Positions 22,585 to 36,620 of a stretch of 64,000 bases of DNA are shown here, one piece after another (the first letter of the stretch is position 1; each line of letters begins with the position of its first letter). Below the pieces are notes generated by a model that saw only the letters and a list, made by a program, of their open reading frames with translations, was not told the origin of the DNA and did no database searches. The translations under genes and the position numbers were made by a program. The DNA comes from a virus (taxonomy: Duplodnaviria; Caudoviricetes), in the IMG/VR virus record IMGVR_UViG_3300042139_000023, one strand, 5' to 3'.

Positions 22585-22596
22585 CATCCGGGACGT

Positions 22597-23022: not shown

Positions 23023-23029
23023 CGTCGGG

Positions 23030-23083
23030 GAGACGCCCTAGGCGAACCGGTCCGGGAACGGACCGGGGCGCCGGGAGTGCCGC
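23030..23083 (+). ncRNA. Intergenic structured element, family 2 (copy a)
   Basis: GAGACGCCCTA-[stem-loop]-GGGAGTGCCGC. Confidence 0.5.
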
Positions 23084-23146
23084 CCGGCACTGCGGGCCCG
23101 GTCACATCGGATCGGGCCCATTGGTTCGGAAAGAGAGAAGATCAAC

Positions 23147-23554
23147 ATGCGTGCAGCATTCGCGGGAATCCTCGCCGGTCTCGTCGCCCTGTTCTCGCTG
23201 AGCGGGAGTGCGGAAGCGGCCCCCGCCCGCCCGTCGGTGAAGGTGGTCAAGTCGGTCTGCGAGACCGGCCACCGGGGCATGCCGGAGTACGACCGTAAGT
23301 GCCTGAAGACCGGGACGATCCTGGACGGGGTCAACCTGTGGTTCCGGTACATCGAGGGCGGCGCGGTGAGCAAGGCCGACCGCAAGGCGTTCTGCAAGGA
23401 CGCGACCAGCACGGGCCACACCCGCGCCGGGATCATCGACGGCCTGTTCGATGTCGCGTACGACAACTACCGGAACCACAAGCTGATGCTCTCGGTGGCC
23501 GGGACCGTCGGCGTGATGGACTGCCAGCAGCTCGGGGTCAAGATCAAGAAGTAG
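23147..23554 (+). CDS. Secreted protein with Sec signal peptide
   Basis: MRAAFAGILAGLVALFSLSGSAEA|A; four Cys. Confidence 0.75.
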   Translation: MRAAFAGILAGLVALFSLSGSAEAAPARPSVKVVKSVCETGHRGMPEYDRKCLKTGTILDGVNLWFRYIEGGAVSKADRKAFCKDATSTGHTRAGIIDGLFDVAYDNYRNHKLMLSVAGTVGVMDCQQLGVKIKK

Positions 23555-23574
23555 TCCGGCCGGACCGGCGGACG

Positions 23575-23604
23575 GGAGCGCGCGGGAGGGGGCCCGCGCG
23601 TTCC
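23575..23604 (+). ncRNA. GGAG...UUCC hairpin, family 1 (copy A)
   Basis: GGAGCGCGCGGG-loop-CCCGCGCGTTCC. Confidence 0.6.
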
Positions 23605-23645
23605 AGCCTGCTTGTCCAGTGGGAACCGAGGAGAGGGAGAAGATC

Positions 23646-23963
23646 ATGGCAAAACTTTCGGCGGCCGGGCGACTCGTGCTGTTCCTGGTCGACAGTCCGC
23701 ACGCGCACGTCAGCTACTCGCTGGGGGGCGGGTTCCGTCCGTCCGTCATCGCGTCCATGGAGCGGGGCCACGGGACGAAATCGAACCCGCGTGCCGACAC
23801 GGTTCTGAAGCTGATCGACGTCGGCGTACTGGCGGGGGCGGAGTTCGCCGATCTGACGCTGACCGACCGGGGCCGGACGATCCTCGCCGAACAGGTGGCG
23901 GCCGGGTGGGAGCTGGTCACCGGGACCGGTCACAAGCCGTACGTGCAGCGCAAGGACGCGTGA
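23646..23963 (+). CDS. Possible winged-helix-like protein
   Basis: TVLKLIDVGVL...LTLTDRGR pattern. Confidence 0.5.
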   Translation: MAKLSAAGRLVLFLVDSPHAHVSYSLGGGFRPSVIASMERGHGTKSNPRADTVLKLIDVGVLAGAEFADLTLTDRGRTILAEQVAAGWELVTGTGHKPYVQRKDA

Positions 23964-24049
23964 CCGGATGACGGGAGCGCCCGGGGTATCGGCCCCGGGC
24001 GCTGACGCCACCTTGTCACGGACCGAACCGAGGAAAGGGAGAAACGGGA

Positions 24050-24586
24050 ATGATCAAGCCGTACGGAATCAAGGTCACCGCGTACCGGGAGGGTTCGGAC
24101 TCCGGCATGTATCACGTGCGGGAGTTCGACGCGCCGGGACGTGCGGAAGCGGTCGCGGCCGTGCGTTCGTGGCTGCTGGTCGAGGGGTACGACGTCGACC
24201 GGTCCAAGATCGAAGTGGTGGCGGACGGGATGAGCCTCGCCGCTCACATGTCCCGGGAGCTGGTGAACCTGGGCGCCCGCATGTCCCTGCGCCACAGCGT
24301 GAGCATGGACGGCCCGCGTACCTGGGTGGACGGGAACGGCGAGCGGGGCGCGGCCGTGAAGCTGTGGGCGGCGAACGGGCGCGGCGTGTCGGTCTCGTCG
24401 AAGCTGGACGAGAACGGGTTCATTCACTCGGAGTTCGCGGCGATCCGGGAGGACGCGACCGACCGGCACGGGTGGGTGTTCGACGACACGGCACAGCACT
24501 ACCCGGAGCGCACGACGGTCGGGGACGGGTTCGACGGTGACGTGTCGGAGATGCTGACGCGGATCGTCGATCTGCCCCGGAAGTAA
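24050..24586 (+). CDS. Hypothetical protein
   Basis: RBS GAAAGGGAGA. Confidence 0.8.
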   Translation: MIKPYGIKVTAYREGSDSGMYHVREFDAPGRAEAVAAVRSWLLVEGYDVDRSKIEVVADGMSLAAHMSRELVNLGARMSLRHSVSMDGPRTWVDGNGERGAAVKLWAANGRGVSVSSKLDENGFIHSEFAAIREDATDRHGWVFDDTAQHYPERTTVGDGFDGDVSEMLTRIVDLPRK

Positions 24587-24612
24587 CGAACGGGTCACGA
24601 TGTAGGCGGACG

Positions 24613-24639
24613 GGAGCGCCCGGATCCTCCGGGCGTTCC
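24613..24639 (+). ncRNA. GGAG...UUCC hairpin, family 1 (copy B)
   Basis: GGAGCGCCCGGA-tcc-TCCGGGCGTTCC. Confidence 0.6.
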
Positions 24640-24661
24640 AGCCGGTCTATGATCGGGCAAC

Positions 24662-24671
24662 GGCCTAGGCC
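24662..24671. promoter_or_regulatory. GGCCTAGGCC palindrome (copy 3)
   Basis: Intergenic, downstream of TATGAT. Confidence 0.6.
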
Positions 24672-24704
24672 GAACGGGAACGACGAACGGAAAGAGAGAA
24701 GATC

Positions 24705-25082
24705 ATGGCTGCTGACCCTTACAACACGGGCCTTCAGAGCTGGCAGACGTTCATCACGGTCCTGCGGGCCGGGAAGGCGCTGAACGGCGGCGGGCACCGG
24801 CCGCGCGGCGCGGGTGCGGTGGACGTCATCCCGTCGGACGCGCCCGACGGGGGCGCCGGGAGCCGCACGGGTTCGTGGCTGGGCTCGGAGTGGGACGAGT
24901 CGGTCTCGCGCGCCGACAAGATCATCTACTTCTACAACACGCCGATCGCGTACACGATCCCGATGTTCGGGTGGGTCGTGCCGAACGTGAACCACACGGC
25001 CACCACGACCGGCGCGCAGAACCGCATCCGGGAGGCGCTGAAGTCGCGCGGGATCTCGTACGCGGAGACGCCGGGCCACTGA
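24705..25082 (+). CDS. Conserved-type phage protein (YNTPIAY...TT..QN..REAL)
   Basis: Recognisable Y-x-TPIA...S/T-x-TT pattern. Confidence 0.8.
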   Translation: MAADPYNTGLQSWQTFITVLRAGKALNGGGHRPRGAGAVDVIPSDAPDGGAGSRTGSWLGSEWDESVSRADKIIYFYNTPIAYTIPMFGWVVPNVNHTATTTGAQNRIREALKSRGISYAETPGH

Positions 25083-25106
25083 ACGACGGGCGCGCGGTCG
25101 CGTTCG

Positions 25107-25138
25107 GGAGCGTGCGGGGATCCGTCCCCGCCCGTTCC
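25107..25138 (+). ncRNA. GGAG...UUCC hairpin, family 1 (copy C)
   Basis: GGAGCG-t-GCGGGGA / TCCCCGC-c-CGTTCC. Confidence 0.6.
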
Positions 25139-25171
25139 AGTGCACGACCGGACGACGGAAAGAGGGAAGAC

Positions 25172-25507
25172 ATGGCGACGTACGAATACCTGAAGCCCGG
25201 CGAGGCGCTGGCCAGGGCGCACGAGAGCGCGCGGGACTTCGAGAAGATCATCGGGCTGCGCGGGATGGACGCCGAGAACATCCGGCCCCGGATCGAGCGG
25301 ACGCGGGCCGGGTACATGCACCCGCCGTTCGACACGTGGCGCGCGTACGGGAGCCGCGACCAGATGCGGGAGATCGTCAAGGTCGAGAGGACCGGCGGCG
25401 ACGCGGACCCCGGGACGATCACGGTCACGTTCAAGGGCGACGACGGCACGGAGGAGTCGACCTACCTGCACAGGTTCGACCTGCTCTGTGTCGAACGCCC
25501 CATCTGA
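25172..25507 (+). CDS. Hypothetical protein
   Basis: RBS GAAAGAGGGAAG. Confidence 0.8.
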   Translation: MATYEYLKPGEALARAHESARDFEKIIGLRGMDAENIRPRIERTRAGYMHPPFDTWRAYGSRDQMREIVKVERTGGDADPGTITVTFKGDDGTEESTYLHRFDLLCVERPI

Positions 25508-25521
25508 CGCGGTCGCGTTCG

Positions 25522-25549
25522 GGAGTGCCGGGAGGGGGCCCGGCATTCC
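25522..25549 (+). ncRNA. GGAG...UUCC hairpin, family 1 (copy D)
   Basis: GGAGTGCCGGG / CCCGGCATTCC. Confidence 0.6.
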
Positions 25550-25582
25550 AGTGCACAACCGACGGAAGGGAGAAACGGCAGC

Positions 25583-26023
25583 ATGGACACGACACAGCAG
25601 AAGATCGACGACATCCGGCGGGGTTCGCTGCTCCAGACGGCGGGCGGTTTCGTGATCGCCGATCTGGACGGATGGACGGCCGGGAGCGGTGACGGCCGGG
25701 TCGAGCCGCAACAGTTCCTGTACGACACGGACGGGCGGCGCCACTTCCCCAACCCCACGGACGGGACGCTGACGGTCGGGATCGCCACGTTCCGCACGCA
25801 GGAGTACGGCAAGGTGCCCGGGAAGGACACGCAGGGTCACGCGCTGCTCAACATGGTGCCGGGCGAGCCTCCGGCCGGTCTGTGCCCCGCGTCCCGGAAC
25901 CTCGGGAACAAGCTGTCGGTCTGGTCGTCGGGGACAGCGCTCACGGGTGTCACGTGCCGGGCATGCCGGAAGATGATCGGTCTCGTCAACACGGGTGCGC
26001 CCCGGCAGAGCAACGGGATCTGA
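25583..26023 (+). CDS. Hypothetical protein with C-terminal zinc-finger-like CRAC
   Basis: HALL...LC...VTCRACRK. Confidence 0.75.
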   Translation: MDTTQQKIDDIRRGSLLQTAGGFVIADLDGWTAGSGDGRVEPQQFLYDTDGRRHFPNPTDGTLTVGIATFRTQEYGKVPGKDTQGHALLNMVPGEPPAGLCPASRNLGNKLSVWSSGTALTGVTCRACRKMIGLVNTGAPRQSNGI

Positions 26024-26025
26024 TC

Positions 26026-26298
26026 ATGGACGAGTTCGCCTACCACTCCCCCGGCGCGAAAGCGGGGGTCCTGCACATGCGGGAACTGACGGACGACGTC
26101 TTGCGCACGATCGCCCGGGACGGGGACCACGTGACCCCGGAGTTCCGGGAGGTCTACGCGTTCATGGAGACGGTCAAGGACGGCGACCGCCCGACGAATG
26201 CCGATTGGGTCACCGGGAGGGCGATCGACGAACTGTTCGACCGGAACGTGATCGACGGTGAGCAGTGGGACCACATGCGGCGGGAGGCGGGGCTGTGA
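26026..26298 (+). CDS. Hypothetical protein
   Basis: Coupled ORF. Confidence 0.75.
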   Translation: MDEFAYHSPGAKAGVLHMRELTDDVLRTIARDGDHVTPEFREVYAFMETVKDGDRPTNADWVTGRAIDELFDRNVIDGEQWDHMRREAGL

Positions 26299-26576
26299 AG
26301 CTGATCGCCGTTGACCCATGGGACTGCGGGTGTACGGAGTGCATCACGGGCGAGTACGTGCCCCTGCGGTACGCCACGGACGAACAGGTGGCCGACCTGA
26401 TCATGGGGAGGCTGCGCAACAACCTGAACTCCGGTACCCAACTGGAGATCCACACCACGTACGCGACGGAGAACGGGAAGCTGGTTCTTCACGACGTCAC
26501 GGTGACGTACGAGCACCACGACGGAGAGACGCGGGAGTGGTCACCGGACCCGTACCGGATGGGTCTCGCCGCGTAG
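26295..26576 (+). CDS. Hypothetical protein (DCGCTEC)
   Basis: GTGA coupling. Confidence 0.75.
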   Translation: MKLIAVDPWDCGCTECITGEYVPLRYATDEQVADLIMGRLRNNLNSGTQLEIHTTYATENGKLVLHDVTVTYEHHDGETREWSPDPYRMGLAA

Positions 26577-26643
26577 CAACGCACGGAAGTCAAGGACGGA
26601 CGCCGGGCCCACACGGGCCCGGCCGGAAGGGAGAAACGAGATC

Positions 26644-27267
26644 ATGGCGCGCACCCTGGAAGGGTTTCACGACCTGCTGGCCGACCTGTTGATCAACACC
26701 CGCCGGAAGCACGACGGGCGCCCCGGACCGGGACAGCTCGGTTACCTGGGCGACGAGTCGGCCGACGCGGTGACCATGTGGCGGCACATGGCGCACCTGG
26801 CGCACTCGTACGCGAACGGGGCCGAGGTGCGCGGGATCCGGCCGACGTGGTCGGACCTGTGGGAGGACGGCATGGACCGGGAGAAGTTCCTGGCCCTGAT
26901 CGCCGACCGGTCCCGCATCCTGCGCGCCGTGAAGAGCGGGGGCGACATGGACACGATGCTCGTGGACGACTCCGTGCGGTACTGGGAGTTCACCCTGGCC
27001 CTGTCCACGGTGACGGACGACGAGAACGCCGAGTCGGCCCGGCAGAACGGGAACCGGGAGGCCGCGCGCCGGATCATGCTGGAAACGGAGATCGACCTGG
27101 CCGTGATCCGGGCGTACACGGACGTCGACATTGCGACCCTGCGGCGCACGCTGCGGGAGTGCAAGGGTGAGCGCCCCATGTCGCCGGGCGTGGACGGCAA
27201 CGGCGCCCGGAAGTGGGAGCCGCACCCGCTGTTCGACCTGATCACGGCCAACCGGCCGACGGTCTGA
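26644..27267 (+). CDS. Hypothetical protein
   Basis: RBS GAAGGGAGA. Confidence 0.8.
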   Translation: MARTLEGFHDLLADLLINTRRKHDGRPGPGQLGYLGDESADAVTMWRHMAHLAHSYANGAEVRGIRPTWSDLWEDGMDREKFLALIADRSRILRAVKSGGDMDTMLVDDSVRYWEFTLALSTVTDDENAESARQNGNREAARRIMLETEIDLAVIRAYTDVDIATLRRTLRECKGERPMSPGVDGNGARKWEPHPLFDLITANRPTV

Positions 27268-27353
27268 CATCACGGAGCGCCGCTGTTCGGGCGGGCGCGG
27301 GGCCACGGTCCCGCATCCGTCCGTGTGGTGACGGTTCACGGGAAGGGGAAGAG

Positions 27354-27659
27354 ATGCGAGCGACGACGACGGAACTCCTCCGGGCGTTCATCCAGCCGGG
27401 AGACGAGATCGCCGACAGCCGGGCCGACGTGCACGACGTGTTCAAGGTCATGCACTCCGGCTACGGGTACGCGGGAGTGCTGCTGACGCAGCGCCCGACG
27501 GGCGGCACGGGCATGTCGTACAGCGTGTGGAACGTCGGAGCGGGCGGCAGGATCACGGCCACGATGACATCCCGGGACTTCCCGGCGGTGAGCGCCGCGT
27601 TCCTGGCGCGCGTGGCGGAGAAGGTCCGGGAGGACGGCATGGGAGAGGTGACGGTGTGA
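27354..27659 (+). CDS. Hypothetical protein
   Basis: RBS GGAAGGGGAAG. Confidence 0.75.
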   Translation: MRATTTELLRAFIQPGDEIADSRADVHDVFKVMHSGYGYAGVLLTQRPTGGTGMSYSVWNVGAGGRITATMTSRDFPAVSAAFLARVAEKVREDGMGEVTV

Positions 27660-28114
27660 AGAACACGTACCTGTACCGGCTTCCGGCCGGTAAGCGGTGG
27701 CTGTGGACGGCGGGACGCGCGGGCGCGGCCGACCTGTTCCTGAACCCGGAGACGGGCGACGGGACGGATCCGGACTGGCAGGGGTACATCGGCCTGTCGA
27801 ATCACCTCGGGCACATGCAAGAGCTGTTGCACAAGGCGATCGAGGACGAGCCGCGCGTGTGCATCGGAAAGCACTACATGATCCCGGGCTCGTTCTGTGA
27901 AGTCTCGCAGGCCCGGGAGGCGGAAGCGAGCGAGACGGTACGACTGGTCACCATGTGGACGTGGGATGCGCCGGTTCTGGAAGGGACCACGCTGTCACGG
28001 CTGCGCATGACCCTGAACCGGCCGACGGACGCGGAAGGGATGAGCAGCCGGGCCGACCGCATGGCCTTCCTGGAGGAGAACAAGGGGCACCGGATCGTGC
28101 CGGTGTGGATGTGA
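27656..28114 (+). CDS. Hypothetical protein
   Basis: GTGA coupling, GAGGTGA RBS. Confidence 0.75.
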   Translation: MKNTYLYRLPAGKRWLWTAGRAGAADLFLNPETGDGTDPDWQGYIGLSNHLGHMQELLHKAIEDEPRVCIGKHYMIPGSFCEVSQAREAEASETVRLVTMWTWDAPVLEGTTLSRLRMTLNRPTDAEGMSSRADRMAFLEENKGHRIVPVWM

Positions 28115-28200
28115 CGGAGCGCAGTGCTTCGGGCCTGCACGGGAGTGATTCCGTGCGGGTCCGTGGTGCCGGGCGGTCCGGCCGGAAGGGAGATTGAACC

Positions 28201-28692
28201 ATGGGCAAGACGCTGGATGAGTTGCTGCACGGGCCGAGCGCGCTCCCCGTGCTGGTCAAGGCCGACGGGACGTTCGAGACGGCGGTGTACCCGCCCGCGA
28301 CTCTCGCCGACTACGCGCCGGAGTCGATCGACGTCGACTATGAAGGCTCGTTCGAGGACGGGCAGATTCTCGACCACCACGAGCGGGACGCGATCGAGTC
28401 CGTCAAGGACGGGTGGACCGTGCTGACGGGATGGTCGGCCGATCCGTCCCTGTTCATCATGCGCAACGACCAGTACATCGGCGGGGCCCTGGCCGAGCAC
28501 ATCGCCGGGACGCCCGGACTGTGGGCGATCGTCTCCGTGGAGATGCACCCGCCCACGTGCGGCGCCGGGAAGGACGGGATGCCGTGCCCGGAGTGGGACG
28601 AGCACGAGACGTGCGAGCACGCCGAGGGCGGCGAGTCCGACGGTGTCGGGTGGGCGCTGGTTCACCGGGAGCCGCAGGGCGAGAACGCCTGA
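28201..28692 (+). CDS. Acidic hypothetical protein
   Basis: RBS GAAGGGAGA; D/E-rich. Confidence 0.8.
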   Translation: MGKTLDELLHGPSALPVLVKADGTFETAVYPPATLADYAPESIDVDYEGSFEDGQILDHHERDAIESVKDGWTVLTGWSADPSLFIMRNDQYIGGALAEHIAGTPGLWAIVSVEMHPPTCGAGKDGMPCPEWDEHETCEHAEGGESDGVGWALVHREPQGENA

Positions 28693-28707
28693 CCGGAGGG
28701 GACGGAA

Positions 28708-29337
28708 GTGCTGTACGCGATCTACGTTCCGACCGCCCGCACCCCGACGTCCGGTCTGGAAGTCGAGCGCCTGCCCTCACGGGAGCAGGCGGGGCGGTGC
28801 CTGCTGGAACGTAACCTCTTGGGCGCCGGGCGGACCTGGTTCCTGGGAGATGAGCCCTCCCGGTACGGAGCGTACCGGCCGGTGCGGGAGTGGGCCGACG
28901 CGGACGAGACCGGCTACATGCGGGTCTTCCTGCGCAAGGCCACGGAGCCGGTTCCCCGGCCGCTGGACACGCCTCATGAGGAGTGGCTGGTCAACCCGGG
29001 AGGCAAGCGCGGGGTCGTGGTCCGACTCCCGTGGGAGGCGGCCGACGGGGAAGTGGTCCGGCTGCTCAAGGACGGGTTGCGGGTGCTGCCGTCCGGTACG
29101 GCCCCGGCTCCGGCCCCTCGGAGCCGGACGGTCACGGCACCCACGCCGCTGGTCGTGGCACCCCGACCGGTCTGCGGGAGTTGCTTTCAGGTCAAGCATC
29201 CTACGGCCGGGTGCGGTTGCCCGGATACGGGCGCGGCCCTGGTGATGGAGATGCAGCGGCCGACCCGGGACGGATGGGAGGAATGCCCGGGGTGCGGCAA
29301 GGCGGTATCCGCGTACGCGCGGTGTGGTTGTTCGTGA
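28708..29337 (+). CDS. Hypothetical protein with C-terminal Zn-ribbons
   Basis: CGSC...CGC, CPGC...CGC. Confidence 0.75.
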   Translation: MLYAIYVPTARTPTSGLEVERLPSREQAGRCLLERNLLGAGRTWFLGDEPSRYGAYRPVREWADADETGYMRVFLRKATEPVPRPLDTPHEEWLVNPGGKRGVVVRLPWEAADGEVVRLLKDGLRVLPSGTAPAPAPRSRTVTAPTPLVVAPRPVCGSCFQVKHPTAGCGCPDTGAALVMEMQRPTRDGWEECPGCGKAVSAYARCGCS

Positions 29338-29363
29338 TCAGATCAGGCAAGGGAGAGGGACGT

Positions 29364-29630
29364 ATGAGCAGCGGAAGCGGACCCCGGGAGATCGTCGTGC
29401 GGCGTAAGCAGCACGCATCGCATGGCGTGCCGACGATGGGCTTCGGCGCCCGGGACATGCAGACGGGTGCGCACATCTGGCTTCCGTCCCCGATCAAGGA
29501 CGGTGACCGGTTCACGGAGGGCCGGGAGTCGGCGGAGATCGTCGCCCGGAAGCTGCTGCCGGACGGCGCGCGGCTGCTGTGGGACCGGGACACCCCGGAG
29601 ACGTACGTCTTCACGGTGGCCGGTGCATGA
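29364..29630 (+). CDS. Hypothetical protein
   Basis: RBS AAGGGAGAGGG. Confidence 0.7.
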   Translation: MSSGSGPREIVVRRKQHASHGVPTMGFGARDMQTGAHIWLPSPIKDGDRFTEGRESAEIVARKLLPDGARLLWDRDTPETYVFTVAGA

Positions 29631-29737
29631 TCTTCGGTCTCGTGTTCGTCCTGTACTTCGGGTGTGGGCTGGCCTGCATGGGCCTGCGGTACCTGTGGGC
29701 GGGACTGCGCAAGATCAGAGACGGCAAGGCTGGGTGA
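29627..29737 (+). CDS. 36-aa membrane peptide
   Basis: ATGA coupling; hydrophobic N-terminus, basic tail. Confidence 0.55.
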   Translation: MIFGLVFVLYFGCGLACMGLRYLWAGLRKIRDGKAG

Positions 29738-29750
29738 TCTGAGGCATTCG

Positions 29751-29791
29751 GGAGGATTCGGGGCCGGGTTCGGCCCGGTTCCGAGTCTTCC
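29751..29791 (+). ncRNA. GGAG...UUCC hairpin, family 1 (copy E)
   Basis: 18-bp stem with four G-U pairs and no mismatches. Confidence 0.65.
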
Positions 29792-29818
29792 AGTGTGTTC
29801 CTGATCGGTCGAATGGTC

Positions 29819-30244
29819 ATGAACCGGACGGAAAGGATGGAAGCGGTGGAAGCTGCGCGAATGAAGTTCACGGCGGCGTTCGTCGAGGAAGTGGCGGCCC
29901 GGGTCGAGAAGATCACGGGTGGCATGTTCAAGCTGGGACCGGTCGGCTCGCACCCGGAGCACGGGACGTCGTACGCCGACGCGCGGGATGACCGGGTGTG
30001 GTACGGCCCGCAGGGTGCCCGGCAGGCGTGCGCGTTCTACACGGCCGCCGCCATGCGGTACCTGCACCTGATGGGCATCGAGCCCGACGGGGACGACGGT
30101 GAGTTCCTGCTGGCCGTGCAGGTGGCGTACTCCCGCTACGGGGCCACGGCCCGGGAGCGTGTCGACTACCACGAGTGGGAGATGCGGGGCGGTGACCGGG
30201 CGCAGGAACTGATCAACGCCGCCGAGGGCGACGCGCGCAACTGA
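29819..30244 (+). CDS. Hypothetical protein
   Basis: In-frame ORF in the co-oriented gene array; start uncertain. Confidence 0.75.
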   Translation: MNRTERMEAVEAARMKFTAAFVEEVAARVEKITGGMFKLGPVGSHPEHGTSYADARDDRVWYGPQGARQACAFYTAAAMRYLHLMGIEPDGDDGEFLLAVQVAYSRYGATARERVDYHEWEMRGGDRAQELINAAEGDARN

Positions 30245-30277
30245 CCAGCGGTACACGACGGAAGGGAAGAACGGGAC

Positions 30278-30796
30278 ATGACGAACCTGATCACGCTGGA
30301 GAACGGCAACCAGGTCGAGCCGGGATGCTGGTTCGACGGGGCGCACGGGTGGACGAACTCATACCGGGTCGTCGACCTGGCCGTGCACCACGGGATGGAG
30401 CTGGACGCCGAGGATGCGGCGGTCGTCGAGTGGTACCGCAGCTCCGGCGACTCCGACGCGGACGCCTCGGACGACGAGCTGAGCAAGCTGGAAGCGATGA
30501 CCGGTCAGGGCGGCCTCTCCGACAAGGCGACGGACTACCTGATGGAGCAGCTTCCCGAGGGCTGGACGCTGCGCTGGGACGACGGCCTGACCTGCCTGCG
30601 GGACTGGGAGGACTGCGCGGCCGACGGCAACGGGTGCGAGGTCGACGTGGACACGGCCGGGAACATCGTGCTGGTCAAACGGTGTGCCGATCACAACCCC
30701 TGCGAGGGTCACGTCGACACGGACGACGCGCTGACCTCCGGCGTGGGCATTGGTGAGGCCGTCTACTGCGACGGGTCGTGCGTCCCGCAGAGCTGA
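30278..30796 (+). CDS. Highly acidic hypothetical protein
   Basis: RBS GAAGGGAAG; GCWFDG motif; D/E-rich. Confidence 0.8.
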   Translation: MTNLITLENGNQVEPGCWFDGAHGWTNSYRVVDLAVHHGMELDAEDAAVVEWYRSSGDSDADASDDELSKLEAMTGQGGLSDKATDYLMEQLPEGWTLRWDDGLTCLRDWEDCAADGNGCEVDVDTAGNIVLVKRCADHNPCEGHVDTDDALTSGVGIGEAVYCDGSCVPQS

Positions 30797-30869
30797 CCAT
30801 CCGCGCGCTTCGGGCGGGCATCCGGGAGACCGGGTGCCCCACCGTGGACCACGGAAGGGAGATCGGGAA

Positions 30870-31397
30870 GTGATCGAGATCAAGGACAAGAACACGTATC
30901 CGCTGAGCCTGTGGCGCGAAGCGCTGGAGGTGGCGGAGGTCGCCGAGTTCTGCCCCATCGACACCCGGGAGCACAACGGCGGGGAGCTGGGGGCGCTCGG
31001 GGCGTGGCTCTGTGACGAGCTGTACGGCAAGCCCGTGAATCCGAACAACGTGCGGGAGGACACGGGCGAGATCGTCACCGAGAACATCATCGACGGCGCG
31101 CTCTCGGTGCTCGACCAGGAGGACCGGGAAGCGCTCACTCCGGCCGACCTGCGCAGGGTCATCGAGTCCTACCGAGGCGAGACCTTCGACGACTTCGAAG
31201 AGCTGGCCCGGGACTACGCCGAGACCGACTACATCGGCCCGGACGACGAGAACCCGGCGCTCACGGAGTGGGAGGGGTTCAACTCCCCCGAGGACTTCGA
31301 ACGCTGGTACACGAAGTACGGCACGGGAGAGGGCGAGGTCTGCGGGGAGATCCGTGCGGGCGGGACCCTGATCTGGTTCGACAAGTTCAAGTGGTGA
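30870..31397 (+). CDS. ArdA-like acidic antirestriction (DNA mimic) candidate
   Basis: IESYRGETFDDFEELARDYAETDY resembles the ArdA C-terminal Y-x-G...E..A...E repeat; acidic. Confidence 0.5.
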   Translation: MIEIKDKNTYPLSLWREALEVAEVAEFCPIDTREHNGGELGALGAWLCDELYGKPVNPNNVREDTGEIVTENIIDGALSVLDQEDREALTPADLRRVIESYRGETFDDFEELARDYAETDYIGPDDENPALTEWEGFNSPEDFERWYTKYGTGEGEVCGEIRAGGTLIWFDKFKW

Positions 31398-31406
31398 GGT
31401 GACGGG

Positions 31407-31646
31407 ATGCGCGGATCGTACGACGACATGGCGGACTGGCAGTACCGGGAGCAGAACCCGGGGTACGAGCGGGAGGTCGGCCTGACGGCCTCCGACCTGG
31501 AGGACTGCGACCCGGAGATCGCCGTTCTGGTGGCGGAGAAGTACGCCCACGACAACGGCAAGCGCCGGGAGGGCAACCTGCGCACGCGCATCGCCACGCT
31601 GGAGGCGGCGCTGGAAGACGCCGGGGTGGAGATCCCGGAGGGCTGA
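31407..31646 (+). CDS. Hypothetical protein, coiled C-terminus
   Basis: GAGGTGA RBS. Confidence 0.7.
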   Translation: MRGSYDDMADWQYREQNPGYEREVGLTASDLEDCDPEIAVLVAEKYAHDNGKRREGNLRTRIATLEAALEDAGVEIPEG

Positions 31647-31737
31647 TCACCATGTGATTCAGGGGCGCACGGGAGGGGGCCCGTGCACGCCTGTGTCCCA
31701 CGGTGGGGCGCAAGGACGTGACGGAGAGGGAGAAGAC

Positions 31738-32280
31738 GTGAGGAAGCTGAAGGACGTTCTGGGCAGGGCACTCGGGCGCAGCGAACACGCGCCGGAGCCG
31801 GGCGTGATCGGGTCCATCGAGGGCACGGAGGCGGGCAACCTGGCCATCCGGATCGGCCGGTGGCTGCGGTCCGGCGGGTGGGAGCAGAAGGAGTACGTCG
31901 TCCTCACCTCGGAGGAGAGGGACGAGCTGATCGGCGTGCTGGAGTCCCACCAGGGTTACCGCACGGTCAAGTGCGGCGACATCGTCGGCGTGGGCTCCAT
32001 CGTCCTGGCCGTGCAGTACGCGAACGGCGCGGGCGGCGGGGAGCGGCGCATCGGCACGGCCCTGGCGTGGACCGACCACAAGCGGGAGTACGTGGTCTAC
32101 ACCATCGACCCGTACGGCGAGGTGAGCAACGGGACGTACACCTTCGACGAGCAGCGGGCGCTGAACGCGTACATCGCCCGGTCGAACGACCACCTGTTCC
32201 GCCACTTCAACGCCAAGCCCCCGGCCATCACGTACGCCCACGTGGCGGAGCGGGACGTCCTGAAGGGGGACAAGGCGTGA
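31738..32280 (+). CDS. Hypothetical protein
   Basis: RBS GAGAGGGAGAAG. Confidence 0.75.
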   Translation: MRKLKDVLGRALGRSEHAPEPGVIGSIEGTEAGNLAIRIGRWLRSGGWEQKEYVVLTSEERDELIGVLESHQGYRTVKCGDIVGVGSIVLAVQYANGAGGGERRIGTALAWTDHKREYVVYTIDPYGEVSNGTYTFDEQRALNAYIARSNDHLFRHFNAKPPAITYAHVAERDVLKGDKA

Positions 32281-32852
32281 GCAGCGGACTGACGGGCCTG
32301 CGGGTCAAGGTCGGGCTGGCCGAGCGGCCGGTCTACGGTGTCGCCCGGGTCCGGTACAACGAGGGCCACACGCACGCCGGGAAGTACGAGATCGAGACGG
32401 CCGACGGGACGTCTTTCCTCGCCCCGTTCGACACGTGCAGGCCCGGCGACAACTGGGACGTCACGCCGGAAGAGGGGCGGTTCACGGGAGCGGAGATCTT
32501 CCGGCCGAACTTCCTGGACGGCACCGGCAAGGAGTTCCTGAGCCGGAGCCCCGGAGTCATCGTGCCCGGGAGCATGGCGCAGATGTGGAAGCTGCTCGAC
32601 CCGGTCCGCAAGGGCTGGACGGTCGAGTGGTTCGGCCGTGGCGCCAACGAGTTCCGGGGCACGCTCACGGTCGCCGAGCGGGAAGAGGCGGCGTTCCGGC
32701 TGACCGGGAAGTACCCGTTCCACTACGTGTGGCCGCAGGTGGGAGAGGAGTTCGAGGTCGACGGCAACACGCTGCACGAGGTGCGGGTGCCGCCGAAGAG
32801 GACCGGGAAGCACCCGTCCCGGTCCCTGTCGCTCACGTTCCACCGGCCCTGA
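32277..32852 (+). CDS. Hypothetical protein
   Basis: GTGA coupling. Confidence 0.75.
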   Translation: MSSGLTGLRVKVGLAERPVYGVARVRYNEGHTHAGKYEIETADGTSFLAPFDTCRPGDNWDVTPEEGRFTGAEIFRPNFLDGTGKEFLSRSPGVIVPGSMAQMWKLLDPVRKGWTVEWFGRGANEFRGTLTVAEREEAAFRLTGKYPFHYVWPQVGEEFEVDGNTLHEVRVPPKRTGKHPSRSLSLTFHRP

Positions 32853-32869
32853 CGGAAAGAGGGAAGAGC

Positions 32870-33148
32870 ATGGAAAGCGGAAGCAGCCGATACCCGGCGA
32901 TGTCGTACGACAAGCTGAACGAGGGGTGGGAGGTCCGGGCGGAGCCGATCACGCAGATCCGCATCGCCTCGGAGCTGGCCCCCTGCGTGAACGCCGGGAT
33001 GGCCGTGCGCGGCGGCCCGCTGCGGGCGCAGCTCCCCGACGGTTCGTCCGGCCGGGAGATCGGCGCCGTGTCGATCGTGTGGAGTCAGACCGAGCAGGAC
33101 GACGGCAGTCGTACGGTGCTCGGGTGGTACGAGTCCGGGCGGAACTGA
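32870..33148 (+). CDS. Hypothetical protein
   Basis: RBS GAAAGAGGGAAG. Confidence 0.75.
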   Translation: MESGSSRYPAMSYDKLNEGWEVRAEPITQIRIASELAPCVNAGMAVRGGPLRAQLPDGSSGREIGAVSIVWSQTEQDDGSRTVLGWYESGRN

Positions 33149-33179
33149 CACCCGGGTGGCGGCCCGTGCACGGTGCCGC

Positions 33180-33195
33180 TAGTCTGGCCTAGGCC
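33180..33195 (+). promoter_or_regulatory. -10-like TAGTCT abutting the GGCCTAGGCC palindrome (copy 4)
   Basis: TAGTCT 33180-33185, palindrome 33186-33195. Confidence 0.6.
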
Positions 33196-33282
33196 GACGG
33201 GTTCGGGAGCGGCCGGTCCTGCGGGATCGGCCGCTGACGTGCCGTGTCGGACGGCGGAGTTGAATCGGAGAGGGAGAAGAGC

Positions 33283-33633
33283 ATGGGGACGTACGTCACC
33301 GACGGTGAGAACGAGATCGGCGTTGCCCTGACGGACTCGTGGGCGGCCGTGTGGACCGTCGACACGCAGTACATCGAGGTCATCCGGCGCGACTTCTGGG
33401 ACGAGCACAGCGAGGCGATCAAGGCGGCGGCCAAGCGGGGCCGCGACTTCACCGACGAGGACGGCCACAACGGCACCGTCGCGGTGATCAGCACGGACGG
33501 CGACCTGGACGACGAGGGCTTCCCGAAGGAGTTCGACGACGCCTCGGAGTACGTCGCCGACGAGCTGTCCTCGTGGACCAGGTCGGACGGTGGCGCGTAC
33601 GAGCGGGCCACCGTTCAGGGCTACAGCTACTGA
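33283..33633 (+). CDS. Highly acidic small protein (DNA-mimic candidate)
   Basis: About 27 D/E versus 9 K/R in 116 aa (hand count). Confidence 0.75.
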   Translation: MGTYVTDGENEIGVALTDSWAAVWTVDTQYIEVIRRDFWDEHSEAIKAAAKRGRDFTDEDGHNGTVAVISTDGDLDDEGFPKEFDDASEYVADELSSWTRSDGGAYERATVQGYSY

Positions 33634-33646
33634 CGGGAGCGGCGGG

Positions 33647-34099
33647 ATGCACGGGGAGCTGATCAGGTACACGTGGGCACCGAACCCCGGGATGGCCTGG
33701 GGTCTGGTCCATCTGTCGCAGGGCAGGGACGGCGACATGATCGGCGCCTTCGTGTACGAGGACCGCGATGCGGCCCTGAAGGGCGACAAGCGGGCCGGAT
33801 CCACGCTGTACCGGGTGGTGCGGCAGATCCGGCCCGCCGACCAGAGCACCGGAACCCCGGACGCCGGGGCCTACGCCTTCGTGTGCAGCTCAGCCACGGA
33901 GTACACCATCTGGACGAAGCCCACGGTGAACGACGTGGGCGGGAGCGAGTACGACGGGGTGTGGTCCTTCCGGGACGCACCGGCCGCCGTGGAACGCACC
34001 GGATGGGCGAACAAGGAGAACGCACGGTACGAGGGACCGGATAACCCCCGGTTCGCAACGTTCCTGCTCACGTGGGACGTGACGGAAGAGGAGAAGTGA
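33647..34099 (+). CDS. Hypothetical protein
   Basis: Co-oriented ORF; start uncertain. Confidence 0.7.
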   Translation: MHGELIRYTWAPNPGMAWGLVHLSQGRDGDMIGAFVYEDRDAALKGDKRAGSTLYRVVRQIRPADQSTGTPDAGAYAFVCSSATEYTIWTKPTVNDVGGSEYDGVWSFRDAPAAVERTGWANKENARYEGPDNPRFATFLLTWDVTEEEK

Positions 34100-34100
34100 C

Positions 34101-34661
34101 GTGGCTCAGACACTGCGCGGGATTCAGATGTTCGACCGGGGCGACCGGGTCGAGATCGGGGAGGGCGAACTGGCCACAGTCGAGCACGACATGGGCGGCG
34201 AGGTCGTCCATGTGCACCCGGACGGGAGCCGGAGCCGGTACCCGCACGACGCCATGCCGGTCGCCCGGGAGGGCGTGAAGCTGACCCGGCAGACCGAGAA
34301 CGGCGAAGAGGTTCAGGTCGAGATCTACTCGAACGGCTCCACGCACACGCTGTACGAGTGCTGCGGATACGACGAGTGCCGGGAGCTGATCCTGGTCAAG
34401 GGTCTCGGGATCGACCGGGCGGAGGCGTTCGCCGGGGACCGGTTCGTGGTCGAGGTCGAGGGTGAGCCGGTACGGATCACGGTCAAGCCGCTCGACGATC
34501 CGTCCTCGTGCATCTGGTGCTACGGGTGCGGCGACTTCCTCGCGCACGGCGAGGGCTGCGAGTGCGAAGACCGGGGCCACAACCCCGAGGCCGACCGGGA
34601 GCCGATGCGCCCGCTGGTCGTGGAGAAGGACGGGCGACTGGAACTGACGCCCTTCAACTGA
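34101..34661 (+). CDS. Hypothetical protein with SH3-like N-terminus and Cys cluster
   Basis: FDRGDRVEI...; CIWCYGC...CEC. Confidence 0.7.
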   Translation: MAQTLRGIQMFDRGDRVEIGEGELATVEHDMGGEVVHVHPDGSRSRYPHDAMPVAREGVKLTRQTENGEEVQVEIYSNGSTHTLYECCGYDECRELILVKGLGIDRAEAFAGDRFVVEVEGEPVRITVKPLDDPSSCIWCYGCGDFLAHGEGCECEDRGHNPEADREPMRPLVVEKDGRLELTPFN

Positions 34662-34664
34662 GCG

Positions 34665-34713
34665 GAGACGCCCTAGGGTTCCCGGCCGCGCGCCGGGGGC
34701 CCGGGAGTGTCGC
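34665..34713 (+). ncRNA. Intergenic structured element, family 2 (copy b)
   Basis: GAGACGCCCTA-GGGTTCCCGGC/GCCGGGGGCCC-GGGAGTGTCGC. Confidence 0.55.
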
Positions 34714-34749
34714 TGATCGGGCGATGCCGGAACGGAGAAGGAGAACGGG

Positions 34750-35340
34750 ATGACCGAGATGGACGTGCTGGAGACGGCGGGCCGCTACCGGGTGCGCCTG
34801 GTGGTTCAGCAGGACTCGCAGGACTGCAACCCCCGGACCGAACAGGACTGCAACCTGACGAACGTGATCACCCCGAAGGGTCAGCGGTACATCGACGTCG
34901 ACAAGGACGGCGGGCCGTTGGCGGAGGGGTGGGAGCGGATCGAGGACCGGTACGTGGACGCGGTCCCCGTCTTCACCCGGTGGGCCAAGATCTTCCACGG
35001 TGCCACGGTCGTCGAGGACCGGCCGCACGACGGTGCCTGGTCGATCTGGTACGTGATGCCGGAGAAGCTGGCCGAGACCACGTGGACCGCCGAGAAGGTC
35101 ATCGAGTCGGAGCAGACCGAGTACCGGCGATGGGCCGAGGGTGAGGTGTACGGCCACATCGTCGAGAAGGACGTGACCCGCATCCCCCGGGACGCCGAGG
35201 ATCGAGACGACCCGGAGCTGGACGACGAGACGCGCGAGTGGGAAGAGGTCGACTCGTGCTGGGGCTACATCGGCCGGGAGTACGCCGAGGAGGCGGCCCG
35301 CGAGGGGTTCGCCCCGTACGCCGAGGAGGCCGGGAAGTGA
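34750..35340 (+). CDS. Acidic conserved-type phage protein (W.EGEVYG...DSCWGY.G)
   Basis: Recognisable motif pattern; RBS GAGAAGGAG. Confidence 0.8.
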   Translation: MTEMDVLETAGRYRVRLVVQQDSQDCNPRTEQDCNLTNVITPKGQRYIDVDKDGGPLAEGWERIEDRYVDAVPVFTRWAKIFHGATVVEDRPHDGAWSIWYVMPEKLAETTWTAEKVIESEQTEYRRWAEGEVYGHIVEKDVTRIPRDAEDRDDPELDDETREWEEVDSCWGYIGREYAEEAAREGFAPYAEEAGK

Positions 35341-35645
35341 AGCGGGAGACACGAGAGATCGCCCCGATGACGGTGACCCGGATCGTCCGGGGCAGGCCGC
35401 CGGGGCACATCGGACCGTACTGGTTCGGCTTCGACATCAAGGTGACCGGCCCGGCGGACGGAGCGTACGTGAGCGCCCGCGCCCGCGCCCTGGCCATGAC
35501 CGACGCGCAAGCCCTGTGCAACGAGGTGAACGCGCCGGGCCTGGTGCTCCAGTTCGAGCGGGCCGGTAACTGGGACGACCCGAGACAGTACGAGTGCACG
35601 ATCAGCTTCGGTACGAGCCTTTCCGTGGAGGAGGACCCGCTGTGA
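35337..35645 (+). CDS. Hypothetical protein
   Basis: GTGA coupling. Confidence 0.7.
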   Translation: MKRETREIAPMTVTRIVRGRPPGHIGPYWFGFDIKVTGPADGAYVSARARALAMTDAQALCNEVNAPGLVLQFERAGNWDDPRQYECTISFGTSLSVEEDPL

Positions 35646-35968
35646 GCGGTGACAACGTGTGGACCCTGCCCGACGGGACGGAGCTGGTCTACCAGGACGG
35701 CGATCACGTCACGATCGACATCGACCCCGGTTCACCGTCGGCCCTGAGCCTGCCGTTCCTGAGCGGCTACGTGCGGGGGTACGACGCCGTGATCGAGGAC
35801 GGCGGCCCGGCGAAGGTGGCGTACACGCTGTACAACGTCGGGAACAACCCGCTGGTCGGCGTGCGGGAGGACCGGCTGAAGAAGACGGTCAGCCGGTTCG
35901 GCATCGGCCACGGCCGGGGTGCGCACGGGGACGGCAAGGCGTGCCACCTGTGCGGTGCGAATCTCTGA
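35642..35968 (+). CDS. Hypothetical protein
   Basis: GTGA coupling, GGAGGAGG RBS. Confidence 0.75.
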   Translation: MSGDNVWTLPDGTELVYQDGDHVTIDIDPGSPSALSLPFLSGYVRGYDAVIEDGGPAKVAYTLYNVGNNPLVGVREDRLKKTVSRFGIGHGRGAHGDGKACHLCGANL

Positions 35969-35972
35969 GCGG

Positions 35973-36020
35973 GAGGCGCCCTAGGGTGACCGGCTGCGGC
36001 CGGTCACCCGGGAGTGCCGC
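35973..36020 (+). ncRNA. Intergenic structured element, family 2 (copy c)
   Basis: GAGGCGCCCTA-GGGTGACCGGC-tgcg-GCCGGTCACCC-GGGAGTGCCGC. Confidence 0.55.
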
Positions 36021-36047
36021 TCGATCGAGCGGACGGAGAGGGAGAAG

Positions 36048-36395
36048 ATGCTGACGAGTGAGGGTCTGGCCAAGGGACGCGCCTGGGTGGCGACGCCGGA
36101 GGAGTACGAGGAGGCGGCGCAGCCGCACGTCCGGCAGCGCAACGAGCGCCGCCTGCGGGGCTTCAACTTCGAGATCATGATCGGTGGCCTATGCCGGGAC
36201 GGGGACTTCTCGTACCCCTACCCGGGCTACTACGGCACGACGGCCCCGGTCGTGGGCCTGCGCCGGGACCAGGCCGAGCACCTGACGGCCGAGCTGCTGA
36301 AGAAGCTGGCCCCTGGCGGCGAACTGCCGACCGACGCGGCCGAGCTGTTGGACTTCGTGTCCACTGTGCTCCGCAACGGCTCCGCCCCTGCCTGA
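36048..36395 (+). CDS. Hypothetical protein
   Basis: RBS GAGAGGGAGAAG. Confidence 0.8.
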   Translation: MLTSEGLAKGRAWVATPEEYEEAAQPHVRQRNERRLRGFNFEIMIGGLCRDGDFSYPYPGYYGTTAPVVGLRRDQAEHLTAELLKKLAPGGELPTDAAELLDFVSTVLRNGSAPA

Positions 36396-36398
36396 CGG

Positions 36399-36446
36399 GA
36401 GGCGCCCCAGGGTTTCCGGCTGCGACCGGAGGCCCGAGAGCGCCGC
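36399..36446 (+). ncRNA. Intergenic structured element, family 2 (copy d)
   Basis: GAGGCGCCCCA-GGGTTTCCGG..CCGGAGGCCC-GAGAGCGCCGC. Confidence 0.55.
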
Positions 36447-36620
36447 CCACGGGTGGCGCAAGTCGGAAGGGAGGTGAGTCGGATGAGCAACGACGACGAG
36501 TGGGAGAAGGCGGGCCGGGAGGCCGAGGAGATCCTGCGGAGGCTGAAGGGCTGACCCGCAGGCAGAAGCGCAGCACACCACGTGAGCACAGAGAACTGCA
36601 TCCGCGAGAAGGAGAAGAAC

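What the first reader, a model, noticed from the sequence alone, without database searches (positions are those of the whole stretch)
23030..36446. Family 2 repeated RNA element: conserved flanks around a covarying stem, right after stop codons
Seen: four copies (23030, 34665, 35973, 36399) of GAGRCGCCCYA-[10-11 bp stem-loop of different sequence]-GRGAGYGYCGC. Inner stems differ but stay paired, using G-U. Flanks can form an outer helix with compensatory changes (GGCGC/GTGCC, GACGC/GTGTC, GGCGC/GCGCC); copy a has one A-C mismatch. Two loops are UGCG. Each copy begins within about 10 nt of a stop codon. Inference: an undescribed cis-acting RNA motif, such as an antitermination, processing or protein-binding element.
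Basis: partly seen in the sequence, partly recalled or inferred. Interest (0 to 1): 0.7.

Follow-up and report, generated by a model that had tools for sequence, protein, structure and literature searches.

The report
Conserved two-state hairpin between phage genes
Four gaps between early genes of a large soil Streptomyces phage hold the same undescribed folded RNA element, a long hairpin whose lower half can re-pair into a second small hairpin, and it most likely marks where the shared message is cut or stabilised.

Summary
The four copies sit exactly where stated. They are the only ones in the 168-kb genome, all on the coding strand, each 3-7 nt after a TGA stop codon (4 exact matches against 0.02 expected).

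Each copy folds into one long hairpin of about 22 bp: a sequence-conserved lower stem with near-invariant bulged A/U, and a variable upper stem around an invariant CCGG/CCGG core. A covariance model finds 3-5 copies at matching positions in at least 10 related large Streptomyces phages (cluster BM isolates, IMG/VR and soil contigs). It found none in the bacterial loci that matched the flank pattern, and Rfam has no match. Pairing holds in 94-96% of cells, nine pairs show compensatory changes, and G-U outnumbers A-C 118 to 16, so the element acts as RNA on the + strand.

New here: the conserved 3' flank has a second, covarying partner downstream. This hairpin, P3, starts exactly after the bulged A and ends at the ribosome-binding site. 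It excludes the lower stem.

Function is not shown. My best guess (0.4) is an RNase III-type processing site between cistrons, where a cut frees P3 as a 5' cap for the downstream gene. The rivals are a phage protein operator, a ribosome-driven switch and a plain stabiliser hairpin. This scan noted the element only in this same genome, not on other DNA.

The parts
23024..23088 (+). Copy a: long hairpin (lower stem P1 plus upper stem P2). The 5' flank is at 23030-23042 and the 3' flank at 23071-23083. The upstream TGA is at 23020-23022.
   Evidence: Sequence. Fold -48.3 kcal/mol, z -5.1. Model R1 scores 61.7 bits.
23077..23090 (+). Copy a: alternative hairpin P3 (GTGCC/GGCAC), which reuses the 3' strand of P1. 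A further hairpin follows at 23094-23119, then the purine-rich ribosome-binding site and the ATG at 23147.
34659..34719 (+). Copy b: long hairpin. The 5' flank is at 34665-34677 and the 3' flank at 34701-34713. The TGA at 34659-34661 lies in the base of the stem.
   Evidence: -39.7 kcal/mol. R1 scores 78.8 bits.
34707..34727 (+). Copy b: alternative hairpin P3 (GTGTCGC/GCGATGC), followed by the ribosome-binding site and the ATG at 34750.
35967..36026 (+). Copy c: long hairpin. The 5' flank is at 35973-35985 and the 3' flank at 36008-36020. The upstream TGA is at 35966-35968.
   Evidence: -47.2 kcal/mol, z -5.8. R1 scores 79 bits.
36014..36034 (+). Copy c: alternative hairpin P3 (8 pairs with one bulged G), directly followed by the ribosome-binding site and the ATG at 36048.
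36397..36448 (+). Copy d: long hairpin. The 5' flank is at 36399-36411 (CCCCAGG variant) and the 3' flank at 36434-36446 (GAGAGCGCC variant). The upstream TGA is at 36393-36395.
   Evidence: -37.5 kcal/mol. R1 scores 74.8 bits.
36440..36459 (+). Copy d: alternative hairpin P3 (8 pairs, loop CACG), then the ribosome-binding site and the start of a 23-codon gene at 36483.
36048..36395 (+). 115-codon gene of unknown function, bracketed by copies c and d. It is absent from two relatives, which carry a single c/d hybrid element in its place.

Best explanation
SHOWN: Family 2 is a conserved, strand-specific structured RNA element in the polycistronic early-gene arm of a group of large Streptomyces phages. 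Its ground state is one hairpin of about 22 bp. The lower stem (P1) has a conserved sequence and near-invariant bulged A, U/A and A. The upper stem (P2) varies but covaries around a fixed CCGG/CCGG core. The 3' strand of P1 (GYGYCGC) can pair instead with a downstream segment to form a small hairpin, P3. P3 begins exactly at the G after the bulged A and ends 0-12 nt before the purine-rich ribosome-binding site of the next gene. INFERRED: the long hairpin is a processing site between cistrons for a double-strand-specific endonuclease, most simply the host RNase III. The irregular, conserved centre of the two-turn helix would be the cut site. The cut would leave the upstream cistron ending in the stable P2 hairpin. 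It would also free the 3' flank, which snaps into P3, so the downstream cistron starts with a protective 5' hairpin directly before its ribosome-binding site. The element would then uncouple the stability and translation of neighbouring early genes, as T7 RNase III sites and engineered ribozyme or RNase III insulators do.
For: Structure: 34 distinct copies show 94.3% of cells paired, 9 pairs with compensatory change and 0/500 shuffles reaching this; slid controls give 36-49% (the same on a second alignment). Strand: G-U 118 against A-C 16, and + strand hits score 50-79 bits against 16-33 for the - strand. P3: 8 pairs, 98.4% paired, 3 pairs with changes on both sides. Without fitting to a model, 21 of 28 distinct copies have a perfect stem of at least 5 bp anchored at that G, against 15% of random positions and 17% of GYGYCG control sites. 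Balance of the two states: the long hairpin is favoured by a median of 3 kcal/mol, and P3 takes over as soon as the 5' flank is made unavailable. Fit to RNase III: the consensus helix has 22 pairs, the length of the idealised E. coli RNase III substrate, and bulges or loops at the target site give single-strand cuts and stable 3' ends (review PMC3867540). The centre of the helix is the conserved bulged region, and P3 starts at its 3' edge. Selection: the flanks stay nearly invariant in distant relatives (G001, G005) whose neighbouring coding sequence barely aligns. Context: all copies lie in gaps of a one-directional array of small genes. A hammerhead core can be read in another gap of the same array, so cutting between cistrons occurs there. 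Other readings fit worse: no sigma-70-type promoter or U-tract terminator at the sites, and no phage RNase III, dsRBD, RegB, sigma factor or T7-type polymerase was found. Host Streptomyces RNase III (rnc/absB) is established knowledge.
Against: No RNA ends were mapped. The only RNA data are low-depth metatranscriptome contigs, which cannot show ends, and one of them spans copy a uncut. RNase III needs little sequence, so the strong conservation of the lower stem and its bulges across paralogues points more to a sequence-specific partner. In E. coli, G-C pairs at certain proximal-box positions block RNase III and this helix is very G+C-rich; the rules for the Streptomyces enzyme are unknown to me. 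Many other gaps in the arm hold long hairpins without these flanks, so what is specific to Family 2 remains open. The P3 alignment was fitted to the model's structure, which inflates pair counts. Covariation in P1 is modest: two pairs, with 8 mismatches of 34 at one of them.
Confidence: 0.4

Rival explanations
1. The element is an operator for a sequence-specific RNA-binding protein or endonuclease, probably phage-encoded. The protein reads the conserved lower stem with its bulged A/U/A and perhaps the CCGG box. Binding or cutting would set the translation or stability of the adjoining genes. P3 is the state adopted when the protein is absent, or after the cut.
For: The unpaired or bulged positions and the lower-stem sequence are nearly invariant in 34 copies, while the upper stem and loop vary. 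This is the usual signature of protein contact. The CCGG/CCGG core is invariant in 32 of 34 copies; the one full replacement is another self-complementary tetramer, TCGA/TCGA. There are only 3-5 copies per genome, and no comparable hit in five Streptomyces genomes (one at 34.6 bits; only 150 of 25,000-37,000 first-look candidates scored per genome) or in the first 100 of the bacterial loci that matched the flank pattern.
Against: No candidate protein was identified. The flanking genes have no Pfam family, and no dsRBD or RegB-like gene was found. These negatives are weak, because most genes of the phage are of unknown function.
Confidence: 0.2
2. The element is a switch driven by translation termination. 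A ribosome stopping at the TGA 3-7 nt upstream covers the 5' flank and melts P1. The 3' flank then flips into P3. The fate of the downstream cistron (re-initiation, stability, or exposure of the long helix to nucleases) would thus report whether the upstream gene is being translated.
For: The stop codon lies 0-7 nt from the first paired base in all copies, in distant relatives too. P1 and P3 exclude each other and differ by only about 3 kcal/mol. Forcing the first 16 nt unpaired makes P3 form in 8 of the 10 copies tested. Both helices keep their pairing through change.
Against: The ribosome-binding site is unpaired in both states, so no direct translational gate is visible. Neither hairpin is followed by a U-tract. 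Starting right after the stop codon is common to most hairpins of the arm, so it is not specific evidence.
Confidence: 0.15
3. The elements are ordinary tail-less hairpins that end or stabilise transcripts, of the kind reported after stop codons in high-G+C actinobacteria. The shared flanks would reflect common descent and gene conversion among copies, not a specific function.
For: Long G+C-rich hairpins fill most gaps of 45 nt or more in this arm. The c/d hybrids in two relatives show that the copies do recombine with each other.
Against: The flanks are the best-conserved blocks in relatives whose adjoining genes have diverged strongly, while the upper stem changes freely. There is no U-tract. 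This reading does not explain why the second partner, P3, covaries.
Confidence: 0.15
4. The element is a DNA-level site: a promoter, an operator or a recombination site. The 5' flank holds the palindrome CCCTAGGG, and CCTAGG is otherwise the core of a separate intergenic motif in this phage.
For: CTAG is about 12-fold under-represented (42 in 168 kb), and 12 of the 13 CCTAGG in the window are intergenic. Recombination between copies c and d removed a gene in two relatives.
Against: The G-U to A-C asymmetry (118:16) and the compensatory changes among paralogues within one genome are not expected for a double-stranded DNA site. Copy d lacks CTAG. No sigma-70-like promoter was found. The copies sit at orthologous places with no sign of mobility.
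Confidence: 0.05

Closest known systems
RNase III processing sites of the phage T7 early region (R0.3 to R1.3); the sites in early mRNAs of Bacillus phage SP82 are similar. This rests on established knowledge plus the review PMC3867540.
   Same: Hairpins of about two helical turns between cistrons of a polycistronic early mRNA. There are several copies per genome with related sequence. An irregular centre lies between an upper and a lower stem. The proposed outcome is a stable 3' hairpin on the upstream product.
   Different: There is no sequence relationship. The helix is very G+C-rich. Cleavage is untested. The T7 sites are not known to me to have a built-in alternative hairpin that forms at the new 5' end.
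Extended start-associated sequences (ESAS with SAS) of Cluster K mycobacteriophages (PMC3203893).
   Same: Both occur in actinobacteriophages. Imperfect conserved inverted repeats flank a variable middle, just upstream of translation starts with a conserved purine-rich initiation region. They are confined to the non-structural arm, in one orientation, and are conserved at orthologous genes. Function is unknown.
   Different: The ESAS arms are 17 bp with a 4-13 bp spacer and no inner covarying stem. The SAS 13-mer is absent here (2 hits with 2 mismatches each, at chance level). No alternative pairing is described for ESAS. The sequences are unrelated.
Phage lambda cIII mRNA and N-leader. These have alternative mRNA structures whose balance or cleavage depends on RNase III (recalled, established literature).
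   Same: Two mutually exclusive folds near a translation start, with RNase III as the proposed reader.
   Different: In lambda the alternative folds hide or expose the ribosome-binding site. Here the site is open in both folds.
Self-cleaving ribozymes between phage genes. A type II hammerhead core can be read at about 40577-40650 in this same arm.
   Same: The same genomic niche (a gap between two small early genes) and the same presumed result, cutting the shared message.
   Different: Family 2 has too few conserved unpaired positions for a catalytic core, and it matches no ribozyme family in Rfam.
Integron attC sites.
   Same: The layout is alike: conserved imperfect inverted ends, a variable but paired middle, extrahelical bases, a position right after the stop codon of a cassette gene, and gene loss between two sites.
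   Different: The defining RYYYAAC / GTTRRRY cores are absent. The copies sit at fixed orthologous places. The G-U pattern points to RNA. No integron integrase is known in these phages.

Membership tests
Any Rfam family (release 15) | Covariance-model score at or above the gathering threshold | tested here: not met
   The whole window gives no match at gathering score. Positions 19000-58000 at E<=1 give only an unrelated weak psbNH hit elsewhere.
RNase III substrate | Double helix of about 20-22 bp (two A-form turns), often with an irregular target site | tested here: met
   The consensus has 22 pairs with single-base bulges at the centre. The length criterion comes from PMC3867540.
RNase III substrate | Cleavage by RNase III in vitro, or rnc-dependent ends in vivo | not testable with these tools
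   Only assembled metatranscriptome contigs at depth 2-5 were available, and they cannot show ends.
RNase III substrate | No inhibitory (antideterminant) base pairs in the proximal box | tested here: inconclusive
   The E. coli rules disfavour G-C at some box positions, and the helix is G+C-rich. The cut site and the Streptomyces rules are unknown.
Intrinsic (factor-independent) terminator | G+C-rich hairpin followed by a U-tract | tested here: not met
   The scan of 22500-37500 finds no terminator-like site at the elements. The sequences after both hairpins have no T run.
Sigma-70-type promoter | -35 and -10 hexamers at 16-18 nt spacing | tested here: not met
   No promoter-like sites in 22500-37500. 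The phage shows no sigma factor or single-subunit polymerase gene.
Cluster K SAS/ESAS | 13-mer GGGATAGGAGCCC at the start codon, with 17-bp inverted repeats 4-13 bp apart upstream | tested here: not met
   The 13-mer is at chance level in the window. Here the arms are 22-28 nt apart and enclose a stem.
Bacterial SECIS or stop-codon read-through stimulator | Open reading frame continuing in frame past the UGA through the hairpin | tested here: not met
   Read: in copies b and c an in-frame stop follows the TGA within seven codons (the fifth following codon, TAG, in b; the sixth, TGA, in c).
Integron attC | Inverse core RYYYAAC and core GTTRRRY at the two ends | tested here: not met
   The flanks are GAGRCGCCCYAGG and CCGRGAGYGYCGC. 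No GTT core is present.
Kink-turn | Three-base bulge followed by tandem sheared G-A, A-G pairs | tested here: not met
   Read from the alignment: the 5' strand has UAGG, not NNNGA, at the irregular centre. The 3' strand's GGGAG resembles the non-bulged strand only.

The most novel reading that the evidence does not exclude
The element is a bistable RNA device read by the translation machinery or by an unknown phage protein. A ribosome stopping at the adjacent stop codon, or a sequence-specific factor on the conserved bulged lower stem, flips the 3' flank between the long hairpin and P3. This would couple the cleavage, stability or re-initiation of the next early gene to the expression of the previous one. 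That would be a natural termination-sensing insulator between cistrons, a class not described so far.
Probability: 0.2. Interest if true: 0.75.

Novelty: new variant of a known kind. Interest (0 to 1): 0.55.

Why it matters
Structured RNA signals of actinobacteriophages are almost unmapped, and the 180-260 kb Streptomyces phages of this group consist mostly of genes of unknown function. A conserved element with clear covariation gives a concrete handle on how their long early operons are expressed. The element has a fixed place between stop codon and ribosome-binding site and a built-in alternative fold. If it is a processing site that also creates a protective 5' hairpin, it is a compact natural cistron insulator that could be used in Streptomyces engineering. 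If it is read by a phage protein or by the terminating ribosome, it would be a new regulatory mechanism. Either way it is a candidate new RNA family that can be tested directly with cultivable phages (Satis, JustBecause, Kela, Frankenweenie) on S. lividans or S. scabiei.

Tried and rejected
**RNA evidence**
- Public runs were found, and four RNA or RNA-labelled runs were laid on 20000-39900.
- They gave only contigs at depth 2-5, some ending inside hairpin loops. Nothing can be said about ends, cuts or expression.

**Pattern scans of public collections**
- Hits were mostly chance matches. The covariance model separated the real copies.
- The model search of five Streptomyces genomes scored only 150 of 25,000-37,000 candidates each.

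**Negative searches**
- Rfam, at gathering score and at E<=1.
- The promoter and terminator scan.
- Pfam on nine neighbouring proteins.
- Phage-encoded RNase III, dsRBD, RegB, sigma-70 and T7-type polymerase. The RegB and T7-polymerase controls rang nowhere, so those two negatives say little.
- The first 50 kb of the Frankenweenie annotation listed no RNA-related function; the rest was not read.

**Readings considered and dropped**
- SECIS or read-through: in-frame stops follow the TGA.
- Kink-turn: the bulged strand is wrong.
- CRISPR-repeat mimic: the stems vary between copies, which a repeat mimic would not allow.
- attC: the core sites are missing.
- MITE-like mobile element: the copies sit at fixed orthologous places.
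- Small ORF started by the internal GGGAGG: no start codon is conserved.
- Cluster K SAS motif.
- Sense CGGGAG enrichment in the early arm as a signal of its own: it is largely explained by CGG-GAG codon pairs, so it was not used as evidence.


Full report
**What the window is.** The window is the minus strand of a 168-kb virus record. Positions 34000-37500 are 89% identical to Streptomyces phage Frankenweenie and 78-87% identical to JustBecause, Kela and Satis, which are cluster BM phages of 184-200 kb. From about 19.3 kb onward the + strand carries a one-directional array of small genes, nearly all annotated as hypothetical in the relatives. No phage sigma factor or single-subunit RNA polymerase was found, although the polymerase control rang nowhere. 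The array is therefore presumably read by the host polymerase as long multi-gene messages.

**The observation.** The 13-mer occurs 4 times exactly on the + strand and never on the - strand, against 0.023 expected. The paired arrangement of 5' block, 22-28 nt, then 3' block occurs only these four times in the whole genome, even with two mismatches per block. Each copy lies in a gap between genes, 3-7 nt after a TGA. Each folds into a single long hairpin of -37 to -48 kcal/mol, with 0-2 of 200 shuffles folding as well.

**Relatives.**
- A covariance model built from the four copies finds 3-4 strong + strand hits (52-79 bits) in each of the four isolates, all in the annotated gaps that correspond to copies a-d.
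- It finds 3-5 hits in IMG/VR phage contigs of 187-260 kb, and more on soil metagenome contigs.
- One hundred prokaryote loci that matched the flank pattern contain no true copy.
- Five Streptomyces genomes gave one weak hit of 34.6 bits.
- Rfam has nothing at gathering score or at E<=1. The genome announcements do not mention the element.

**Structure.**
- In 34 distinct copies, 94.3% of cells in the 22-pair helix are standard pairs and 9 pairs carry compensatory changes. No shuffle of 500 reaches any measure except one (2 of 500 for the count of pairs with a two-sided change), and sliding the partner by 1-3 columns drops pairing to 36-49%.
- Variation is concentrated in four pairs of the upper stem and in the closing pair.
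- The lower stem (GRCGC with GYGYC, GGG with CYC), the CCC/GGG step and a CCGG/CCGG box in the upper stem hardly change.
- The unpaired A before the lower stem, the U/A at CCCUAGG and the A in GGGAG are nearly invariant.
- G-U pairs number 118 and A-C only 16. Reverse-strand model scores are 30-50 bits lower. Selection therefore acts on the + strand as a single strand, which is the mRNA.
- In alignments with the distant relatives G001 and G005, the two flanks are the best-conserved blocks while the neighbouring coding sequence is barely alignable.

**A second partner for the 3' flank.**
- Reading past the element shows that GYGYCGC, the 3' strand of the lower stem, can also pair with a segment 4-13 nt further on.
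- This hairpin, P3, starts exactly at the G after the bulged A. It ends 0-12 nt before a purine-rich ribosome-binding site and the start codon.
- Without any model fitting, 21 of 28 distinct copies have a perfect stem of at least 5 bp anchored at that G, against 15% of random positions and 17% of GYGYCG control sites. The copy-c group has the same stem with one bulge.
- On an alignment made with a second model, P3 has 8 pairs, 98.4% paired, and 3 pairs with changes on both sides. That alignment is fitted to the structure, so the counts lean towards it.
- The two Y positions of the flank covary with both partners.
- P1 and P3 exclude each other. The long hairpin is favoured by a median of 3 kcal/mol (range -10 to +1.7). 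P3 forms in most copies as soon as the first 16 nt are made unavailable. The ribosome-binding site is open in both states.

**What it most likely does.**
- There is no U-tract after either hairpin and no promoter-like site, so a classical terminator or promoter is unlikely.
- A 22-pair helix is the length of the idealised RNase III substrate. Bulges at the target site give single-strand cuts and stable 3' ends (PMC3867540).
- Here the centre of the helix is the conserved bulged region, and P3 begins at its 3' edge. A cut there would leave the upstream cistron ending in the P2 hairpin. It would also let the released 3' flank fold into P3 at the very 5' end of the downstream cistron, just before its ribosome-binding site.
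- The phage shows no RNase III or dsRBD gene. Streptomyces has RNase III (established knowledge).
- Another gap of the same array (40574-40660) contains the ordered hammerhead core (GAA, stem, UA, stem, CUGACGA) when read by eye, although Rfam does not report it. Cutting between cistrons therefore seems to occur in this arm.
- I put this processing model at 0.4. The structure is shown; the cut, the enzyme and the role of P3 are inferred.

**Rivals.**
- The near-invariance of the lower stem and its bulges is more than RNase III should need. It fits a sequence-specific protein, perhaps one of the many unknown phage proteins (0.2).
- The tight spacing to the stop codon and the near-equal energies fit a switch thrown by the terminating ribosome (0.15). 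However, most hairpins of the arm also start right after a stop, and no gate on the ribosome-binding site is visible.
- Plain stabiliser or tail-less terminator hairpins kept alike by gene conversion (0.15) do not explain the conservation pattern or P3.
- A DNA-level site (0.05) conflicts with the G-U asymmetry. Even so, the 5' flank contains CCTAGG in a genome where CTAG is about 12-fold depleted and CCTAGG is almost purely intergenic.

**Comparison with known systems.**
- The closest functional analogues are the T7 and SP82 early RNase III sites, and the lambda cIII and N-leader alternative folds.
- The closest analogue in actinobacteriophages is the Cluster K ESAS/SAS arrangement (PMC3203893). 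It shares niche, orientation, conserved arms and unknown function, but differs in sequence and layout, and its SAS motif is absent here.
- Membership in any Rfam family, and identity as an intrinsic terminator, sigma-70 promoter, SECIS, kink-turn or attC site, was tested and not met.
- I file it as a new variant of a known kind: structured elements between phage cistrons that process or stabilise the message. The unusual feature is the built-in second fold.
- An earlier first-stage note on an overlapping window of this same genome described three of the copies, a second small hairpin and a possible RNase III role. A look-up by sequence found nothing on other DNA.

Noticed in passing
L004:14897-14981 (Kela) and L160:1477-1559 (IMG/VR contig G003), compared with window 35967-36476: Two relatives carry one hybrid element, with the 5' part of copy c and the P3 and leader of copy d. 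They lack the 115-codon gene that lies between c and d in the window. Recombination between the two elements has evidently removed, or elsewhere inserted, that gene. In Kela the annotated small ORF 303 starts inside the hairpin.
   Followed up: partly
window about 15800-55000, + strand: The hexamer CGGGAG occurs 7-38 times per 5 kb in the early arm, but about once per 5 kb on this strand elsewhere in the genome. 70 of 138 copies are CGG-GAG codon pairs, about 1.4-fold over codon-usage expectation. 30 are intergenic, roughly 6-fold over composition, and many of the intergenic ones sit at the 5' foot of hairpins of Families 1 and 2.
   Followed up: partly
window 21340-49814, gaps between + strand genes: Nearly every gap of 45 nt or more in the arm holds a long G+C-rich hairpin starting 0-9 nt after the stop codon. 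Several share a different conserved core, UUCGGGAGYG ...
   Followed up: no
window, 14-31 nt upstream of many start codons (for example 22639, 25583, 26644, 28201, 36048): A loosely conserved, extended purine-rich leader of the type CGGAAGGGAGAA precedes many genes of the arm (18 + strand hits against 2 on the - strand, 12 of them within 35 nt of a called start). It recalls the start-associated sequences of Cluster K mycobacteriophages.
   Followed up: partly
window 40574-40660: The gap reads as a type II hammerhead: stem II strand, GAA, stem III, UA cleavage site, stem I, CUGACGA, stem II strand (sequence). Rfam does not report it, even at E<=1.
   Followed up: partly
window 6449, 22599, 24664, 33188, 39845, 46454, 56719, 57662 (and 53222 in a coding region): CTAG is about 12-fold under-represented in the genome (42 in 168 kb). 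13 of the 22 CTAG in the window are CCTAGG, and 12 of those are intergenic. Nine form a palindromic motif GGCCTAGGYC(A), eight of them intergenic and 24-95 nt upstream of start codons, which may be an operator or promoter element. Three lie in the 5' flank of Family 2.
   Followed up: no
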